This document shows, one piece after another, positions 1,491 through 47,492 of a stretch of 64,000 bases of DNA. This DNA is from the human T2T-CHM13v2.0 reference genome, Homo sapiens. The translations under genes were made by a program, and so were the position numbers. The notes beneath the pieces were generated by a model. The model saw only the letters and a list, made by a program, of their open reading frames with translations. It ran no database searches and was not told the origin of the DNA. Each line of letters opens with the position of its first letter. The stretch's first letter is position 1. The DNA lies in NCBI RefSeq assembly GCF_009914755.1, contig NC_060929.1, one strand, 5' to 3'.

Positions 1491-3541
1491 GACAGATGCA
1501 GTGTACTGTGGCGGAAAGGGCAGAGTCTGTGACAGGGTTCTGGTTCTTGTAGCTCTTGCTAGCAGCCTTCCAGAGGTCTGTCTGAGATATCTCTAAGCAT
1601 TCTCACAGAGAAAATAGAGTTGCATGAAATGACAAAAAATGTCTACCCTTTCATCTCAAGAATAAGTATTAATGTCATACTCTTCTGTAAACCTTCCTTT
1701 AAAATAAAACCTGCAGCTTGCTTAGGGCTAAAACTTGAGCCACAGAGAATTTTCACATAACCAAGTAATATAAATACAATATCGCCTACAAGTGTTAAAT
1801 GGATTTTTGGAAGAGAAAATTCATCACTGTAATTGTTCAGTGAAGGATACCATTTATAATTTTAAGAACTAATATAGAAAATGTGAACACAATTGTAAGT
1901 GCATGACTAAGAAATGTTACCTCATTTTCTTTTCAATAAAAAACAAATCAAGTGACTGGACAAGATATGAGAATGTTGTGAGCATTTTAAAAATTATTTT
2001 AGAATGTTTATTGTTTTAAATGTTAGAAATAATTTATTTTTCATGAATGAAAAGCTTATTCTCTGAAGCATATTTTATAGATTTTTATTTTGATATTGAA
2101 ATAATTTCTGTGAAAATGTGGATTTGCTAAATAGTACTATGTTTAGATCAGTTTGATTGGTCAACACTTCTCAAAATAGGTTCAAGATCTCCTCTTTACC
2201 TGTTGAAAACATTTACTCTCTTGAAAGATCCAATAAAGATATTTTAAAAAGATACTTGGGAAGGGAGGACGTTAAATGATTTCAGTGCACACTTAGTTGC
2301 AAAACCGCAAAGCATGGTTCTGGAAAAATCAAGCCTGCTATCATTATTGATAAAATTTGGATTCCACACCAATAAGCCTTATTTTGGCTAACTGGAATGT
2401 AGAAATATTTAATTCCAGGTGCATAGGGATTTATTTATATTAAAATTGTCCAACAGCACAAGATGCTGTGTCACCGATAGCCTGTAGAGGCAGAAGTTTT
2501 AAAGGACTTTAGTACACAAAAAAACATAATGCAGGCAAACTTTAGCTACCAAGAGTTCTCTAGAATGAGTATATGGATTCATTTGTTTATCCTTTCAGTA
2601 CTGCATTATTGATTACCTACATAAGGGAAGCCCTCTGCTGGAGACAGTCTGGATAAGAGAGAGCTACTGTTTCTGAAGGAACTAAGTCTAATGAGAGAGA
2701 TAAAATAAAGGCCACCTAGGGTGGTTAGTGCAAAGATGAGGAACTGGACACAATTACGGAAAGTCAGATGACAAATTCTTCTCAGATAGATTAGGGCTTT
2801 TCAGACCAGAGCCTTTTCACTTTAGCTTTTTTTTTTTTTCTTTCGGTTTTGGTTTTGGTTCATCAGTTGAATGTGTAAAGTATTTCCTGGCCTTTTCTTT
2901 AACAGGATAGGAAATCTTCCTTCAAGTTGATCATCTCTTGAAGGAGCTTACAGTCTAATTATCTAAAAACAACTGTTCTACATACACGGTTTATGCAGCT
3001 CCTATGCACAGGTGAAGAGCATACAAGATGGGTAATAAAAGCAGCTTGGCATTGATCAAACACTTTACTATGAGCCAGGCACTTTGACTAGTGCTTGACT
3101 TATGTTATCTAATTTAATTCTCAGAACTTTTTCAGATAGTTCAGAACACAGAAGTTAAGTATCTAGAGTACCCGGCTAGGAGTTGCCATATGTGAACTGT
3201 TTTATGGGCTCTGCTACTAGCTGTGTGGCCTTAAGAACGACTGAGTATCAGCCATGAAGAAGGATGGCTTGTTAATACATGTCCCAGGGCAATGTCTAAA
3301 ATTTCTGTTGAAGGGTAATGATTTATGTACAGTCACTCTTGATTAAAGATAACTATGCTGGGGAGTTTCTAGTCAGGCCAAGTGACCTGGAGTCAATGTG
3401 CAGTAGGCATTGCTTAACCCAGAGCTCTCAAACTCAATTGGCCACGGTGCAAGGCAGATAATCCAAACAAATGAAATGAGACAGGTGGGGCCTGGCACAC
3501 TGGAAAGTAAGCATGTACATATTAAACAGGCAAGTTCTACT

Positions 3542-3734: not shown

Positions 3735-3787
3735 TCCTTCCTTCCTACTTCCTTCCTTCCTTCCCTTCCTCCCTTCCTTCCTTCCTT
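3735..3787. repeat. (CTTC)n microsatellite derived from the Alu tail
   Basis: Imperfect cttc/ttcc tetramer run abutting the Alu 3' end. Confidence 0.9.
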
Positions 3788-4060
3788 GTCTCCCTGTGCT
3801 GCCCAGGCTGGAGTACAGTGGCGCGATCTCAGCTCACTGCAAGCTCCGCTTCCTGGGTTCACACCACTTTCCTGCCTCGGCCTCCGGAGCGGCTGGGACT
3901 ACAGGCGCCCGCCACTACGCCCGGCAAATTTTTTGTATTTTTAGTAGAGACAGGGTTTCACCATGTTAGCCAGGATGGTCTTGATCTCCTGAAGTCGTGA
4001 TCCGCCTGCCTCAGCCTCCCAAAGTGCTGGGATTACAGGCGTGAGCCAACGCACCTGGAC
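3788..4060 (-). mobile_element. AluY-like SINE
   Basis: Alu dimer with Y-type positions (gcaagctccgc, ggactacaggcgcccgcc, ttagccaggatggtc) and many CpGs retained. Confidence 0.9.
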
Positions 4061-4351
4061 TTTTTTTTTTTTTTTTTTTGAGACAGAGTCTTGCTCCATT
4101 GCCCAGGCTGGAGTACAGTGGTGCAATCTTGGCTCCTCCTTCTCGGGTTCAAGCAATTCTCGTGCCTCAGCTTCCCAAGTAGCTGGGATTACAGGCGTCT
4201 GCCAACATGGCCGGCTGATTTTTTTATTTTTAGTAGAAATGGGATTTCACCATGTTGGCCAGGCTGGTCTCAAACTCCTGACCTCAGGTGATCCACCCGC
4301 TTCAGCCTCCCAAAGTGCTGGGATTACAGGCATGAGGGACCACGTCTGACC
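4061..4351 (-). mobile_element. AluS-type SINE
   Basis: Poly(T) at 4061-4079 followed by an Alu dimer with cctgacctcaggtgatccacc. Confidence 0.92.
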
Positions 4352-4380
4352 ACTATTTCAATCTATGTAAGCACTCTCAG

Positions 4381-4950
4381 GCAGTGGTCTCAAGATTTGC
4401 TACCTATTAGAATCAGCTGAAGAGCTTTTAAAAATCCAAAACCCAGGTCATGTTCCCTGCCAATGAAATCAGAATCTCTATAGGTAGGACCTAGATATTG
4501 TTGATCTATTTTTAAAACTCCCCAGGTGATTCCAGTATGAAGTCAAGTTTGAAAAACAGCGCTCTCAGACCTTGCTACTCAGTGTGCACCTCAAAATGAC
4601 ACCAGCACCATCATGCCTGTGGCAAATGCAGAATCTTAAGCCCAATTTCAGTACTCCTGAGATGGGACCTGTAGTTAAACAAAATTCCCAGGTGGTTCCT
4701 ATGAAGGTAAATGTTTAGGAAGCATTGCCTAATAATTATCAAGTGACTCATGGAACCTCGCTTTTAAGCCTTTGGACAGTGATTATTAACCATAGCTACA
4801 TATTAAAATCACCAGAGAGTTTAAATGTACCATTACTGGGTCTAGCCAAGGAGATTCTGATTTAATTGATCTATGGTAAGTCCTGGATATTAATGTTTTT
4901 AAAAATCGTACCAACATGAGTCTAATCTGCCACCAGGGTTGAAAACAACT
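4381..4950. mobile_element. Three adjacent MER5A/MER5B-like hAT-Charlie MITEs (about 4381-4558, 4563-4728, 4775-4950)
   Basis: Recurrent MER5 motifs: cagtgg..ctcaa, ttagaatca, aaatgcaga, cccaggtgattc, gtttgaaaa. Confidence 0.7.
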
Positions 4951-6799
4951 AATTGCCTTAGTTCAATTTTTTCCCATTTTGCAGTAACATGAACTTGTCA
5001 TCACCCAATAAATCTTTTTACTATATAGTCATCTGATAATTCATATTAGAAAAAGTCACTGGGAGAGTTGTACCTGCTACCAAAGCTATGGTAGCTCTTA
5101 TATCTGGCCGTGAATGTTTTCTGATTATTTATTCTAATTAAGTCTTCAGGTAGCACTCTTGAAGCTGGAGTTAAGAGGTTTTTCTGCCCTAGTTTTAAAA
5201 TAGGTAGTCTTCCTCTCTGTGGTTTTTAAGGCTTCTGCACAACAAAATCATCTAGGGACTCTTTCAGAAAATAAGGATGACAGGATGTATCCACATATAC
5301 AGTACTTTCACAGAGCCCAAGAGATCATTGTGATGGGGTGAAGGGCAAAATCACTGCTCCAGTCCCTTATGACGTAGGCCCATAATGAGCTATAGGAATG
5401 GCTAAATCAACCAGGTCTCTTACTTGAGGGAACTTAGAGACCACCAGGAATAAATTAAATATCAAATTACTCCCATGAACTCCAATTTCTTCATCTGTTA
5501 AAAAATAAAAATAAAAAGAGATAACACCTCTTGTGTTATTCTTTATAAGAAGAATTCATACAGTGTTATAAAGTGCTTAGCACAGTGTCAACTCCTCAAT
5601 ACTTAAAGCCTAACTTAACAGGGCAGGTTTTTTTCCTGACAGAAGACATTCATTTTAAGTAGTATAAATCAAGGATCTTGGCTCTTCTGTCTTCAACTTC
5701 TACATGTAGCAGTTTTGTTAATTTATTTAATGTTGCATGCCCTTCAATCATAAAACAGAAAAGTGACTACCTTTTCCTGTGAAGATGGCATGGCTTACAT
5801 GCAAGAATCAGAAGTAATCTCTAATAAGTCAAATGATCCTAGTTGTGATGAAAACTAAGGTGCTTTCCCCCCCAGTAAACTAAGCAATTCAATTTATTCA
5901 GCTATATGGGGCATGCTGGAAACCTAATTATGTGGATGAGCCTGACCTTGAAGTTCATACTAAGGTTCTTTGGTCAAAGTAGCCAGCAAGTCATGCCTGT
6001 TACTCAAGTTTAACCGGCTCACTTATTTGTGTGTGGAAATAAAGAAAAGCTAACATCTCCAAAGGGTACTTTGGAATAAACAGTTAAAGCTTATTTAGCA
6101 TGGACAACATGCTTCGTTACTCTGGCTGCCCAAAAAGATCCATATCTGGATACAAGTACACCTATATCCAGAGGCACTTCTATGCACAGAACACCTATGC
6201 TAGAAACTCTATGGTGTCCCCTCTGGGCCTGCCATGGTAATAACTCTAAATACTGCTTTATCCACAACAGCTTAACATTTCTGTTTTATTATTTATCTTG
6301 TACCTAAATCTTCATTTGTAGAAAAATAGACTCCCTACCTTTGTGGAACTTACATTCTGGTGATATGTCAACTCTTCTTTTATAAAAGTGGATCAGATAA
6401 CCTAGAAACCATTTGAAGAAAATGAAAATATTGGAGCTCCACTCTGAGATATTTTCAGTAGTCTGTTTGAAATCTGTTTTAATAATAGACTCTTAGGAAT
6501 TTTTCTCCTGGTTTTTAAATTCTCTTGTTTGTAGGAAGGCATATATCTTTTGTTTCTTTTAGTAAACCTTAGATGGTGAGATATATTGAGATATTGTGAA
6601 TATTTAATTAGAAATCTAAGGGTTTTACAGCAAATGCAAGCTTAGAAGTTATCCAATTTCGTTTACAGATGAGATGCTGAGATATAGAATTAAGTTCTCA
6701 GCCAGTGATCTGTTCATTTGGCTTTAGTGTCTTACTAAACAGTTTCCATCAAAGCCTTTCAGATTCCCCATAGCTTTGAGGCCATATTGTTTATTTGGG

Positions 6800-44349: not shown

Positions 44350-47033
44350 GTAGTGGTTCTTTGACTTTAATGTGCATTCAAACTCACTAGGAATATTTTT
44401 ACAATGCAGATTAGATTCTAATTCAGGAGGTTTGGAATGAAGCTTAATATTCTGCTTTTTTTTTTCTGTTTGCTGTTTTAAAACTGCTAGTTCAGAAAGT
44501 TTTACATGTCCTATTTCCTAATTTGTTCATTGGTATATACCAGAGTTTTGTTAGCTCAAATGAAAAATCTTCTTTCCCATCATGACATATGCATGAATCA
44601 AGTCTTCCTTGTAGGTGGAACTCAGCAATTTGTCTCCTGTCTATCTACTGGGTATTTCTTAAATTTCCTCAGTGTCTAGGCCAAATCTTTGCTTATTTAT
44701 TAGCTTTCCAGGCACCTTGCTTTTAGACCTCTCACAATTACATTGCAGTGATTTGGGAGAGACTGTCTCAGACTGCAAGCCCTCCTGTTTGGCCATGGTG
44801 AGTTCCTTCTGGAGGCTGCCATGAGTGATTTCACAGCAGTCCTTCACCAGTTCATCTCTTAAACCATATAGATACTCTCATATGCACTATTATTCAACTT
44901 GCTCTTCTTTCTGGCATGCCTGATGATGTATCAGGGAGGGAGAGAGTTCTTGGGACACTTTAGTTTATCACCCTGCTAATCTCTGGATAAAGACTACCCT
45001 AGTGAAGAATCACAGAACTCTGTGCATTAACTTCTTCAAAATGGCATACTCTGTCATCTTCAGCATTCCCTTCCACATCACAGTCTTCTAAATCCTCAGG
45101 AAACAACATGTTCAGTGTAGGACTTTTCCACCCATATATTGTCTTTTGAATTGGGGAGATGACAAAAGCTTCCAGCTTCTTGGTTTTCACAGTCTTTTAA
45201 ATCTTTGTAAAGTTTATGAAATTCTCATCCTTGACTTCCTCAATTTCTTCTTTCATGATCATTTCTTCTTCCTCTATACTGTGTTTCCCACTCTTGATTG
45301 CCTTTTGAACTGAGCCCTTTTTACTATTCTGTGTCTGCCCTGTTACAGGGCTGTCTAGCATTGAATCTTCTTCAACCACAGTGATCACTGAGATGCTATT
45401 ATGAGATGGTCCTTCTCAGAGGCACTCATATCACATTGGATCACTTTTACAACTTTATTGGCCTGAGCCAGCTGGGAAGGCAAGGGACAGATGTTCTCAG
45501 GGCAGATAACACCATTTGCCATTATTTCTTTATTATCTATGGCATGCTTTTCATGTGCATCATACTCTTTATCCACATGACACATTTCAACTACATGGGG
45601 CTCCTCATCTTCACAGAGTTCCTCATCTTCATCACCCTTTTCAGATTTGCATAAACACAAGGCTCTATTAGATGTGGCTTCTCAGTCCAGCTCATATCAC
45701 ATTCAATCACTTTAGTCCAATAAAGTCAACTTTTTTGGACTGCACCAGCTGGATTGGTGAGGGACAGGGTTTCTCTGGGGAGCCTGGCTTTCTCCCATCA
45801 CTGAGGTGCTTCTGGGCATTGAATGGTAGGCTCAGGTCGCTTCCATGCTGAAGGGGAGTTACCTCTCCTGCTGGAACTGCTTGACATTCATAGACTTGCA
45901 CACTTTTAACTTCATGCTCTTTTGGGCTTTTTACCAACTGAACCTCATCCCTGGCTTTTTTACTGAGAGGATTTGGGGGGCAGCCTTATATCTATTTTTT
46001 TTCTTAACCATGTTCATTTCTATGCCAGCACCTGACTTCAAGATCTCTTTGTCTTCTTCAACTTTAAGACACTGCCTTAAACCATAGTATCTCTTTGCTC
46101 ATATTTATTTATAATGTTATCTTCATCCTCAGAAGGGTTTTAGAGCATACTCTTGCTTTTACAGTAACTCTGTGAAAGCAAAGGTGTGCTCTGAAATCCT
46201 CCTGAGGGTTTGTGCTGTGCCACTTTCCCTTGCAGGTCTTTACCGTAGGCCACATCATACAAATTGATGTTTTCCTTAAAAGTCCCATAATTTTACTGTA
46301 GGGGAATCTATTCTTTTATTCACACTTTCTCCTTCTCAGAGGTGCATTGCTTCTGAAAGGTGTGTTTCTATATGAAGGGTTATTAGAAGGGCTCTTACCA
46401 TGTCATCTCCTCTTATGAGTAACATAAAATAAAGCCTATCTCTTTTGTCAGGAATGTTGTCAGCTTCTGTGTAAATAGCAGTAGTGAGGAAACTGGCCAT
46501 ACCAGCTATGTTATGGCTATTGACTTCTGCAGGGATGTTTTGTTTTTCACATGTGTTTTCAGCCTGCTTAAAATCAGATTGAGTCTTTTTGATTTTCTTT
46601 CTTTCTCCAAAGGCATTTTAGTGCTGGAACTGTGCTGTATGATAAGACACTGGGAACATGGTTAGGTGTGGTAGGAAATGGAGATTGTGGCACTAGAAAG
46701 GCAGAATACTTTCTGAGTGCAAATAAATATAGAACACAGACTTAAATTTATTAAACCTGCCCCAGTAACATGGAGATGATCATAGATGGGATTCTGGTAC
46801 CACAGACCCAGGAAAGGATGGGCCATAGCCTGTATTTAATAGGGTCTGGGGTTGCTGCCTACAATATTGTGCACTGCTTTTTGAATAGTAGTTCATTTTC
46901 TAGTTCATTCCTGCATGACGAAAACCTACAGCTCCTCCCCCATCCCCTCCACTCCACCCATATTCTGCATTTCTAATAAGCTCCTAGATGAGGCTGACAC
47001 TGCCTGTCCATGGACCACACTTTGAATAGCAAA
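44350..47033. mobile_element. MER5A split in two (44350-44455 and 46960-47033) by the retrocopy, itself within L2 relics
   Basis: Left half ends ...aatattctgc; right half resumes atattctgcatttctaataagctcc...ggaccacactttgaatagc. Confidence 0.8.
44456..46959 (-). pseudogene. Processed pseudogene/retrocopy (2.5 kb): Glu/Lys-rich protein with a C-terminal SETD2-type SRI-like domain
   Basis: Poly(A) remnant 44456-44465; TSD atattctgc (44447-44455 and 46960-46968); G-rich 5' end; chain of minus-strand ORF fragments ending ITHGSLQKEL...LQCN...QRFGLDTEEI*. Confidence 0.8.
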
Positions 47034-47492
47034 CTCCTAAGGAAGATAGCAAGGACTTTAAGGATTTCAATTGGAGCAGAAAATATTATAAACATATATC
47101 TAGCATTCTAGAAAGAATGTTGTGGTTTTAGAATAGAAGATTAACTGGAGAGGGGCAAGATTGGAAGCAGGAAAAAATTTAGCTGACTATTTTAGTAAAC
47201 TTGGTTAGATATGACAGAGATTTCAGCTACTAGATTGCACTGGGCATGGAGAAAACTGAACAGATTCAAATATACTTGGAAGTAAAACTTAGAATCTTAG
47301 AGAACTTTGGAAGCGAGAGCAAGAACAGAAGAATAGAGACAGATTCTTAGGTATCTGGCTTGGTCAAATTTAATGCTACTCAAGGTGAGACAGCAGATCT
47401 GTGGAACGATTTAAAAATAGGCATTATATAATCAGATGTTATTTTCTTCACTCAATTAGAAATACCTATGTATCATCTCTGAATTCAGATAC

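What the first reader, a model, noticed from the sequence alone, without database searches (positions are those of the whole stretch)
44456..46959. Retrocopy of an unrecognised short transcript ending in a SETD2-like SRI domain, nested in a MER5A
Seen: poly(A), TSD, a TT|AGAA L1-endonuclease-type site on the minus strand, a split MER5A, and an intronless ORF chain. Its end reads DTSS...S*IIVH...ITHGSLQKEL...PKSLQCN...KSK...QRFGLDTEEI*. Knowledge (from memory): SETD2 ends ADTSS...SQFIVQ...LTHGVMNKEL...PEDLECN...KHK...QKFG...EDTELE*, the Set2-Rpb1-interacting domain that binds the phosphorylated Pol II CTD. The upstream 2 kb is Glu-rich, shows no SET domain and does not match SETD2 as I recall it. 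Inference: the parent may be a SET-less, fast-evolving SRI-domain gene rather than SETD2 itself.
Basis: partly seen in the sequence, partly recalled or inferred. Interest (0 to 1): 0.72.

Follow-up and report, generated by a model that had tools for sequence, protein, structure and literature searches.

The report
Dead retrocopy of germ-plasm gene BUC
This stretch is an old, broken, intron-less copy of the messenger RNA of Bucky ball (BUC), the gene that organises germ plasm in fish and frog eggs; it is not a new SETD2-like gene, and it is already in print as "the primate buc pseudogene".

Summary
The structural observation holds. Window 44456-46959 (minus strand) is an L1-type retrocopy with a 10-A tail and a 13-nt target-site duplication (12/13). 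It split one copy of a ~180-bp interspersed repeat.

No SRI signal appears by Pfam, a genome-wide SRI HMM scan or PDB searches. The SETD2 likeness is peculiar to the chr5 copy and is absent from its sister copies. Two of the quoted motifs lie outside the true reading frame.

A search of 1.84 billion proteins identified the parent as mammalian Bucky ball (Buc/Velo1 family). All 39 placental Buc proteins tested align colinearly from about residue 12 to the C-terminus, across frameshifts and stops.

The first 59 nt of the "Human" line in Additional file 2 of Skugor et al. 2016 (PMC5080839) match window 46896-46838 exactly. The locus is therefore already known as the primate buc pseudogene.

What that paper does not say:
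- The locus is a processed copy, away from the conserved AVL9/KBTBD2 neighbourhood.
- Sister retrocopies lie on chrX, chr15 and chr19.
- At the syntenic chr7 site only a terminal, non-coding exon fragment was found.

It is an ordinary relic with a modest correction to the literature. Interest is low to moderate.

The parts
44456..46959 (-). Whole insert: full-length processed pseudogene (retrocopy) of BUC mRNA, including the A tail
   Evidence: Bounded by the target-site duplication and a split repeat. All 39 Buc proteins tested hit it, with 196 HSPs at E<=1e-3.
46960..46972 (.). Upstream copy of the target-site duplication (sense orientation)
   Evidence: family D14: 12/13 identical to 44447-44459.
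44447..44459 (.). Downstream copy of the target-site duplication; its A-rich start overlaps the end of the A tail
   Evidence: family D14.
46962..47047 (-). 5' half of the interspersed repeat that the insertion split (MER5A by recall)
   Evidence: Aligns to positions 5-91 of a consensus of 11 genomic copies; score 112 against a shuffle maximum of 25.
44352..44459 (-). 3' half of the same repeat
   Evidence: Aligns to consensus positions 81-182; score 61 against a shuffle maximum of 27. The overlap 81-91 is the duplicated target.
46897..46959 (-). 5' untranslated part of the copied mRNA (63 nt)
   Evidence: Lies upstream of the ATG that Skugor et al. align to the ferret Buc start. The chrX copy is homologous from about 46903.
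44659..46896 (-). Decayed BUC coding sequence: ATG at 46896-46894, terminal TAA at 44661-44659
   Evidence: tblastn tiling to horse, camel and clouded-leopard Buc runs from residue 12-13 (40 in camel Buc, whose model starts earlier) to the C-terminus. In the camel tiling there are at least 7 frame changes and 10 in-frame stops. The start matches the published human line.
46631..46859 (-). N-terminal conserved region, the part that holds the BUVE motif in Buc proteins
   Evidence: Aligns to camel Buc residues 40-119 at 43-54% identity across two frames. This is the most conserved block of alignment A1. That it is 'BUVE' is taken from the papers.
45666..45782 (-). First unit of the internal repeat (family motif ...VPSP.WLAQ.NKVDEGIQCDMSWW...)
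   Evidence: Direct repeats D1 and D2, 75-77% identical, 266-277 nt apart. The motif occurs twice or more in Buc proteins.
45400..45505 (-). Second unit of the internal repeat
44686..44844 (-).
   Evidence: 58% identical over 53 residues to horse Buc 791-843 and 57% to camel Buc. No SRI hit.
44466..44658 (-). 3' untranslated part. The position of the parent's last intron is 44637|44636; no intron is present here
   Evidence: Homology of the chr7 genomic fragment starts exactly at this point, behind a splice-acceptor-like ...TTATTTCCTAG|G. chr5, chrX and chr15 run straight across it.
44456..44465 (-). Poly(A) tail, 10 A

Best explanation
The insert is a full-length processed pseudogene of Bucky ball (BUC, the mammalian member of the Buc/Velo1 germ-plasm and Balbiani-body organiser family).

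Inferred mechanism: a spliced, polyadenylated BUC mRNA was reverse-transcribed by the L1 machinery at a nick in a MER5-type repeat. This is inferred from the hallmarks, not observed. BUC is a maternal oocyte message in other vertebrates, and only germline transcripts leave heritable copies.

The result is 63 nt of 5' UTR, about 2.24 kb of coding sequence, about 190 nt of 3' UTR, a short A tail and a 13-15-nt target duplication. The copy has since decayed without detectable constraint. It now holds many stops and frameshifts and has no function that I can see.

It is the same locus that Skugor et al. 2016 printed as the 'single primate buc pseudogene'.

Sister retrocopies of the same mRNA lie on chrX (near full length), chr15 (5'-truncated) and chr19 (internally shortened). 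The likely parent site on chr7, between AVL9 and NT5C3A, keeps only a fragment of the last, non-coding exon. That last step is inferred from position, the splice acceptor and the missing tail.
For: Hallmarks of retroposition.

Identity:
- phmmer of one frame of the insert against 1.84 billion proteins gave 10 hits at E<=0.001. Four are short fragments 79-100% identical to the query. Six are mammalian proteins, with multi-stretch colinear matches (P0005, 723 aa, E 1e-11).
- Their relatives are 37 and 42 proteins; all those that carry a species name are placental. Two are named 'Bucky ball' by UniRef (pig, gray whale). None of the named ones is from a primate or a rodent.
- In A1 ferret P0016 begins with the same residues as the ferret Buc line of Additional file 2; ferret, camel, sheep and pig proteins are listed as Buc in Table S1.
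- All 39 family proteins tested hit the insert (196 HSPs). The tiling is colinear from residue 12-13 (40 in camel Buc, whose model starts earlier) to the end.
- The published human line matches window 46896-46838 exactly over its first 59 nt. The only 100% genomic match is this locus.

Family in the genome and the chr7 site:
- Five related places exist in T2T.
- chr5, chrX and chr15 are continuous across the point where the chr7 homology starts behind a splice acceptor.
- The chr7 fragment lies between Avl9-domain exons at 32.68-32.71 Mb and UMPH-1 exons at 33.154-33.161 Mb. The paper places buc next to kbtbd2/avl9/lsm5.

Tree: the three human copies fall outside an 18-protein laurasiatherian clade (SH-aLRT 95) whose internal order follows the species tree.

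Neutral decay: chr5-chrX mismatches are even over codon positions (0.341, 0.323, 0.339; P=0.80).
Against: - The link from the mammalian family to zebrafish Buc and Xenopus Velo1 was not tested here. It rests on two UniRef names and on the paper's table and tree; my profile search found placentals only.
- I could not see a genomic BUC gene of another mammal. 'No introns' is therefore shown only for the last intron position and by colinearity with proteins.
That the CpG-rich stretch at chr7 33.0305-33.0319 Mb is its promoter is recall plus inference.
- The whole-protein genome search used a stricter first look and may miss weak exons.
- The pseudo-translations in the tree were tiled on four reference proteins and have very long branches (0.77-0.95), so their place is rough.
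Confidence: 0.93

Rival explanations
1. One reading: a retrocopy of an unrecognised, fast-evolving, SET-less gene that ends in a SETD2-like SRI domain binding the phosphorylated Pol II CTD.
For: - Short colinear matches to the SETD2 C-terminus exist in the chr5 translation (THG, KEL, L.CN, K.K, FG).
- Restricted post hoc to the terminal 347 nt, a frameshift-tolerant alignment scores 49 against 31.2 +/- 5.2 for 500 shuffled proteins (P=0.006).
- 'LECN' is conserved in the Buc family.
Against: - Pfam finds no SRI in the terminal frame or in 6 other frames at E<=1.
- The SRI HMM run over the whole genome in six frames, reading through stops, finds 5 places (chr3 twice = SETD2, chr17 twice, chr8). 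None is a BUC copy.
- phmmer against PDB finds only Bye1, at E 0.098 and 2.4.
- Over the whole insert P=0.067. chrX scores 23 (P=0.93), chr15 24 (P=1.0) and the consensus 37 (P=0.38).
- Five full-length Buc proteins give no SRI in Pfam. A 19-protein profile gives 0 PDB hits at E<=10.
- 'DTSS' and 'IIVH' are out-of-frame readings of ...SLPPQL.VWPTRNK....
Confidence: 0.02
2. [quoted passage not shown]
For: - The paper presents it as the single primate buc and mentions neither retroposition nor a chromosome. In the main text 'retro', 'chromosome 5' and 'ISOC1' each occur 0 times.
- The start codon and the N-terminus align with ferret Buc.
Against: - The A tail, the target duplication and the split repeat mark an insertion.
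- The sequence is continuous across a parental intron position.
- The window is on chr5 beside ISOC1 (hub note), not beside AVL9/KBTBD2 on chr7.
- Three further intron-less copies exist.
Confidence: 0.03
3. The chr5 copy was for a time a working retrogene, perhaps standing in for the lost parent, and died only later.
For: - The copy is full length with its start codon.
- The ATG is kept in 7 of 8 catarrhines in the published alignment; gorilla has ACG.
- There is an excess of long open frames on the sense strand (P 0.004-0.011).
Against: - All 8 catarrhine sequences share the same early frame disruption and stop.
- There is no codon-position bias in the differences from chrX.
- The chr5 branch is the longest of the three copies (100 odd sites against 76 and 68, of 624).
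- The open-frame excess is what a decayed coding sequence leaves anyway.
Confidence: 0.06
4. The chr7 fragment is not the parent's last exon but one more severely 5'-truncated retrocopy, and the parent has vanished completely.
For: - No Buc coding exon was found in the 33 kb upstream: blastn with the retrocopy, and tblastn with 39 proteins giving a best E of 0.025 and no colinear hits.
- Only about 160 nt plus a short piece behind an Alu are homologous.
Against: - It lies in the AVL9-NT5C3A interval where the paper places buc. A random landing there is very unlikely.
- Homology begins exactly behind a pyrimidine tract plus TAG|G. The 400 nt upstream are unrelated to the mRNA (score 22 against a shuffle mean of 22.2).
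- It has no A tail and runs on past the chr5 and chr19 poly(A) sites.
Confidence: 0.12

Closest known systems
The 'primate buc pseudogene' of Skugor, Tveiten, Johnsen and Andersen 2016 (BMC Evol Biol 16:232, PMC5080839), Additional file 2
   Same: It is the same locus. The first 59 nt of their human line match window 46896-46838 exactly, and the rest agrees by eye. Both show the early stop. The sequence is shared by human, chimpanzee, gorilla, orangutan, gibbon, baboon, macaque and vervet.
   Different: - The paper treats it as the single primate buc and does not mention retroposition, chromosome 5 or other copies. I saw passages by term search, section 5 in full and supplements 1-3 in full.
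- Here it is shown to be an L1-type processed copy outside the conserved neighbourhood, with sisters on X, 15 and 19 and a remnant on chr7.
Placental Bucky ball proteins (for example horse A0A5F5PJG3, pig A0A8D1LYM6 'Bucky ball', camel LOC105081767, ferret LOC101694066)
   Same: There is colinear similarity over the whole coding length: the N-terminal block, the repeated ...LAQ.NKVDEGIQCDMSWW... motif, the acidic stretch and the C-terminal ...MAKQEGL.S..AS.KSLECNCER.K.KVPYK block.
   Different: The human copy has no open reading frame. Its best protein identity is 41% over 487 columns. It has no introns and sits in another chromosomal context.
Orphan retrocopies (processed pseudogenes whose parent gene has been lost from the genome)
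   Same: Several retrocopies exist with no intact parent in the same genome.
   Different: A terminal-exon remnant of the probable parent seems to survive on chr7.
SETD2 SRI domain (Pfam PF08236)
   Same: Only a few short residue matches in the chr5 copy, plus a shared 'LECN'.
   Different: There is no HMM, PDB or profile hit. The likeness is absent from the sister copies and from intact Buc proteins, and two of the motifs are out of frame.

Membership tests
L1-mediated processed pseudogene | Poly(A) tail at the 3' end of the sense strand | tested here: met
   10 A at 44456-44465.
L1-mediated processed pseudogene | Target-site duplication flanking the insert | tested here: met
   13 nt, 12/13 identical. 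The duplicated bases are positions 81-91 of the split repeat's consensus.
L1-mediated processed pseudogene | Colinear with the spliced mRNA, with no introns | tested here: inconclusive
   Colinear with full-length Buc proteins and continuous over the one parental intron position that could be located. No genomic BUC of another mammal was available to check the other junctions.
L1-mediated processed pseudogene | Insertion at a T-rich / A-rich endonuclease-type site | tested here: inconclusive
   TT|AGAAAT if the duplication is read as 15 nt; AG|AAAT if read as 13 nt. The consensus is from recall.
L1-mediated processed pseudogene | Lies away from the parent locus | tested here: met
   The window is on chr5 (hub note). 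The conserved buc neighbourhood (AVL9 and others) is on chr7.
Buc/Velo1 (Bucky ball) family | Significant, colinear sequence similarity to recognised family members | tested here: met
   In A1 ferret P0016 begins with the same residues as the ferret Buc line of the paper's Additional file 2; ferret, camel, sheep and pig proteins are listed as Buc in Table S1. Two relatives are named Bucky ball by UniRef.
Buc/Velo1 (Bucky ball) family | N-terminal BUVE motif | tested here: inconclusive
   The N-terminal block (...RPFFYV...PWYQNP...YFPY...EYPGFLVPQ... in intact mammals) is recognisable in chr5 at 43-54% identity, but broken by a stop and frameshifts. That this block is the BUVE motif is taken from the papers; it was not compared with fish or frog sequences here.
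Buc/Velo1 (Bucky ball) family | Direct homology to zebrafish Buc or Xenopus Velo1 | not tested
   The profile search reached placentals only. The link rests on the phylogeny and table in PMC5080839.
Buc/Velo1 (Bucky ball) family | Position in the conserved kbtbd2-avl9-lsm5 neighbourhood (orthologue criterion) | tested here: not met
   Not met for the chr5 locus, so it is a copy and not the orthologue. The chr7 fragment does lie between AVL9 and NT5C3A.
SRI domain (PF08236) | Match to the Pfam SRI model | tested here: not met
   No hit at E<=1 on the terminal frame. The genome-wide scan finds SETD2 and four other places, none of them a BUC copy. There is no SRI in five intact Buc proteins.
SRI domain (PF08236) | Similarity to solved SRI structures by sequence | tested here: not met
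   phmmer of the terminal frame finds only Bye1 at E 0.098. The Buc profile gives 0 hits at E<=10.
MER5A (hAT-type non-autonomous DNA transposon) | Match to the family consensus | not testable with these tools
   No repeat library is on hand. The flanks do belong to one high-copy ~180-bp repeat. The family name is recall.

The most novel reading that the evidence does not exclude
The sequence that the literature uses as 'the primate buc gene, inactivated by a stop after 20 codons' is not the orthologue. It is an old processed retrocopy on chr5.

The true BUC locus at 7p14.3 has lost all its coding exons in the human lineage and survives only as a terminal-exon fragment.

Four retrocopies (chr5, X, 15, 19), one possibly from an exon-skipped isoform, are a fossil record of BUC mRNA in the germline of our ancestors. 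The time and manner of BUC loss in primates would then need to be worked out anew from the chr7 site.
Probability: 0.6. Interest if true: 0.4.

Novelty: already known. Interest (0 to 1): 0.3.

Why it matters
Buc/Velo1 is the only known vertebrate organiser of the Balbiani body and germ plasm. Its absence from primates and rodents is cited in arguments about how germ-cell specification switched from inheritance to induction.

If the published primate 'buc pseudogene' is a retrocopy, its early stop codon says nothing about when or how the real gene died. That question has to be asked at the chr7 site.

Otherwise the locus is an ordinary dead processed pseudogene in an intron of a lncRNA, with no sign of function. 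For the scan, the useful lesson is that a chain of short remembered motifs can imitate a domain. Sister copies and intact orthologues exposed it.

Tried and rejected
1. L1 3' transduction from the L1 next to the chrX copy. The adjoining L1 piece is an internal ORF2 part, not a 3' end (by eye). Rejected.
2. A high-copy repeat such as an old L1 3' end or HAL1. Only 5 places in the genome match, even with the 311-nt 3' end alone, and Pfam finds nothing in the frames. Rejected.
3. A non-coding source transcript. I favoured this for a while, because the 3-4-copy consensus keeps stops and chr5-chrX differences show no codon bias. The protein hits overturned it.
4. The weak Bye1 TFIIS-like hit (E 0.098). 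It is not supported by Pfam or by the Buc profile. Chance.
5. Tandem Repeats Finder finds nothing. The internal duplication appears only as diverged direct repeats.
6. The chr19 junction as a canonical splice. No AG is seen at the acceptor in any copy, so it was left open as a side note.
7. Search for upstream BUC exons on chr7 and for an N-terminal exon genome-wide. Nothing was found. The whole-protein search ran with a stricter first look.
8. Locating KBTBD2 directly. I placed AVL9 and NT5C3A by Pfam scans instead.
10. Bontems et al. 2009 is not held. [quoted passage not shown]
11. Literature check for a retrocopy reading:
- One search (bucky ball + pseudogene + human) gave 4 papers.
- One search (bucky ball + retro + primate) gave 6 papers. 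I checked passages in two of them and found no such statement.
- One search was badly framed and says nothing.
Full report
**1. What is in the sequence**

Read on the minus strand, window 46959-44456 is an insert. It ends in ten A (44465-44456). It is flanked by direct repeats at 46960-46972 and 44447-44459, identical at 12 of 13 positions (family D14).

The 5' flank belongs to a high-copy interspersed repeat. There were 181 first-look candidates; 40 were scored and 39 lie elsewhere, at 78-87% identity. I built a consensus from 11 of those copies.
- The 5' flank aligns to consensus positions 5-91 (score 112; best of 300 shuffles 25).
- The 3' flank aligns to positions 81-182 (score 61; best shuffle 27).
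- The overlap, 81-91, is the duplicated target.

So one repeat copy was split by an insertion that duplicated its target. That the repeat is MER5A is recall, not a test. A plain BLAST of the 3' flank against those 11 loci found nothing at E<=1e-3; only the consensus showed the match.

The sense strand carries 7 stop-free stretches of 60 or more codons. Shuffles give 2.4-2.7 (P 0.004-0.011 for that count; P 0 to 0.005 for the summed top seven). The antisense strand shows no excess.

**2. The SRI idea**

The domain call nevertheless fails every test.
- Pfam finds no SRI in the 72-residue terminal frame, nor in six other frames, at E<=1.
- The SRI model was run over the whole T2T genome in six frames, reading through stops. 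It finds two SETD2 exons on chr3, two places on chr17 and one on chr8. It finds nothing at this locus or at its sister copies (8 candidates, all scored).
- phmmer against PDB gives only yeast Bye1, at E 0.098 and 2.4.
- A frameshift-tolerant alignment of the last 114 SETD2 residues scores 49 against the insert. Shuffled proteins give 40.9 +/- 5.2 (P=0.067).
- Restricted post hoc to the terminal 347 nt, the same alignment gives P=0.006. The homologous stretches of the chrX and chr15 copies score 23 (P=0.93) and 24 (P=1.0). A 3-4-copy majority consensus scores 37 (P=0.38).

A real inherited domain should be at least as visible in the sister copies and the consensus. Instead 'THG' and 'KEL' are changes private to chr5. 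The other copies, and horse Buc, read TYG and KK there.

**3. Relatives in the human genome**

DNA searches with the whole insert and with its last 311 nt find the same five places.

| Place (T2T) | Extent | Identity to chr5 |
|---|---|---|
| chr5 (this locus) | full length | 100% |
| chrX 140,619,797-140,622,007 | near full length, no long frame | 65-67% |
| chr15 46,486,883-46,487,657 | begins about 1650 nt into the insert | 67% |
| chr19 about 8.237 Mb | internally shortened, three Alu inserted | 71% |
| chr7 33,047,873-33,048,026 | last ~160 nt only, an Alu inserted | 79% |

The 3' ends coincide within about 25 nt. chr5 and chr19 carry A runs there.

Among chr5, chrX and chr15, the odd-one-out sites number 100, 76 and 68 of 624. 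Each copy therefore lies very roughly 11-16% (uncorrected) from their common point, and chr5 is not the freshest. chr5-chrX differences are spread evenly over codon positions (P=0.80), as expected for neutral decay.

**4. Identity**

I read one frame of the insert through its stops with X and scored it against 1.84 billion proteins. There were ten hits at E<=0.001.
- Four are short fragments 79-100% identical to the query.
- Six are mammalian proteins, several with colinear multi-stretch matches: P0005 (723 aa, clouded leopard), P0006 (manatee), P0007 (pangolin) and P0008 (yak), plus the shorter P0009 and P0010, for which I saw no species name.

Their relatives number 37 proteins and, with a 19-sequence profile, 42 proteins. 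All those that carry a species name are placental. Two are named 'Bucky ball' by UniRef (pig, gray whale). None of the named ones is from a primate or a rodent.

All 39 family proteins I held hit the insert, with 196 HSPs at E<=1e-3. The tiling runs colinearly from residue 12-13 (40 in camel Buc, whose model starts earlier) to the C-terminus, through at least 7 frame changes and 10 in-frame stops in the camel tiling.

The cow pseudogene in the paper's Figure S1 shows a similar off-frame string.

Intact Buc proteins have no SRI in Pfam (5 proteins). Their profile gives no PDB hit at E<=10.

**5. It is in print**

Skugor et al. [quoted passage not shown]

Their Additional file 2 prints the human sequence. 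Its first 59 nt occur once in the window, at 46896-46838 on the minus strand, with no mismatch. The only 100% genomic match of the insert is this locus.

The same sequence, with the same early disruption, is shown for chimpanzee, gorilla, orangutan, gibbon, baboon, macaque and vervet. The copy therefore predates the split of apes and Old World monkeys.

In A1 ferret P0016 begins with the same residues as the ferret line of that figure. Table S1 lists ferret, camel, sheep and pig proteins as Buc, beside zebrafish Buc and the Xenopus protein.

The paper's main text holds no word beginning 'retro', no 'chromosome 5' and no 'ISOC1'. Supplements 1-3 give no location.

**6. The parent site**

The paper places buc next to kbtbd2, avl9 and lsm5.

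In T2T, Avl9-domain exons lie at chr7 32,682,440-32,712,815. The multi-exon UMPH-1 gene lies at 33,154,342-33,160,966; that it is NT5C3A is by recall. The chr7 fragment sits between them.

Three features set this fragment apart.
- Its homology to the mRNA copies starts exactly behind ...TTATTTCCTAG|G.
- The 400 nt upstream match nothing in the retrocopy (score 22; shuffle mean 22.2).
- It has no A tail and continues past the chr5 and chr19 tail sites.

chr5, chrX and chr15 run straight across that point, at 44637|44636 in the window.

I read the chr7 piece as the last, non-coding exon of the ancestral BUC gene, and the other four places as processed copies.

No Buc coding exon was found in chr7 33,015,001-33,051,000 or elsewhere in the genome. 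One search ran with a stricter first look.

That the CpG-rich stretch at 33.0305-33.0319 Mb is the KBTBD2 promoter is inference from recalled coordinates. I could not fetch the region.

**7. Age and placement**

chr5 and the chr7 exon fragment differ at 21.6% of 162 sites (Jukes-Cantor 0.255). With recalled neutral rates of 1-2.2e-9 per site per year, this suggests very roughly 60-130 million years. This is only an order of magnitude.

In a quick maximum-likelihood tree (609 columns), the 18 laurasiatherian proteins form a clade (SH-aLRT 95) whose inner order follows the species tree. The three human pseudo-translations attach outside it, unresolved, on branches of 0.77-0.95. The pseudo-translations were tiled on four reference proteins, so this placement is rough.

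**8. Mechanism and verdict**

Shown: the hallmarks of target-primed reverse transcription, the identity of the copied message, and decay without detectable constraint.

Inferred: that the message came from the germline, and that the chr7 fragment is the parent.

The locus lies antisense in an intron of lncRNA LOC102723654 (hub note), and I see no sign of function. It is an ordinary processed pseudogene that is already described, though described as if it were the gene itself.

In the open library I searched (passages) nobody states that it is a retrocopy or mentions the other copies. Bontems et al. 2009 could not be read.

Noticed in passing
L030 (T2T chr19:8,234,001-8,241,000), minus strand, about 4565-2814: The chr19 BUC copy joins the N-terminal coding part (ending ...CCTGGGGCAG) directly to the C-terminal ...NCER... 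part, skipping about 2 kb. The second breakpoint falls at 'LEC|NCER'. This is where several predicted Buc proteins end differently (...LECK), which hints at an exon boundary and a retrocopy of an exon-skipped isoform. No AG acceptor is visible in the copies. Three Alu elements were inserted later.
   Followed up: partly
L027 (T2T chrX:140,616,001-140,626,000), 3740-6040: The chrX copy is near full length and keeps the ancestral N-terminal reading better than chr5, but its start codon reads ATA. It has one repeat unit fewer than chr5. It abuts L1 ORF2 fragments and a younger L1 3' end upstream.
   Followed up: partly
T2T chr7:33,030,500-33,031,900 (within L053): A CpG-rich stretch is open in all frames, about 16 kb from the BUC exon remnant. 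It is probably the KBTBD2 promoter, from recalled coordinates. I could not check, because no more genome letters could be fetched.
   Followed up: no
Alignment A1, columns about 440-800: The motif ...SYPE..VPSP.WLAQ.NKVDEGIQCDMSWW... varies in number among placental Buc proteins: two in most, more in horse, five or six in pangolins. The two units in chr5 (45400-45505 and 45666-45782) are 75-77% identical to each other.
   Followed up: partly
Database proteins P0002, P0003, P0004, P0011: Short 'proteins' of 45-74 residues, 79-100% identical to the query frame, sit in the public protein library. They are presumably gene-prediction artefacts from primate DNA.
   Followed up: no
P0007 and P0036: Two Manis pentadactyla Buc-family proteins carry unrelated names in their NCBI records ('Sodium-Dependent Proline Transporter', '2-Aminomuconic Semialdehyde Dehydrogenase'). 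This looks like a naming error in that annotation.
   Followed up: no
L029 (T2T chr7:33,045,001-33,051,000), about 3026-3335: An Alu sits inside the remnant of the last BUC exon, just before the shared 3' end motif. The exon sequence resumes behind it with the Alu's own target duplication.
   Followed up: no
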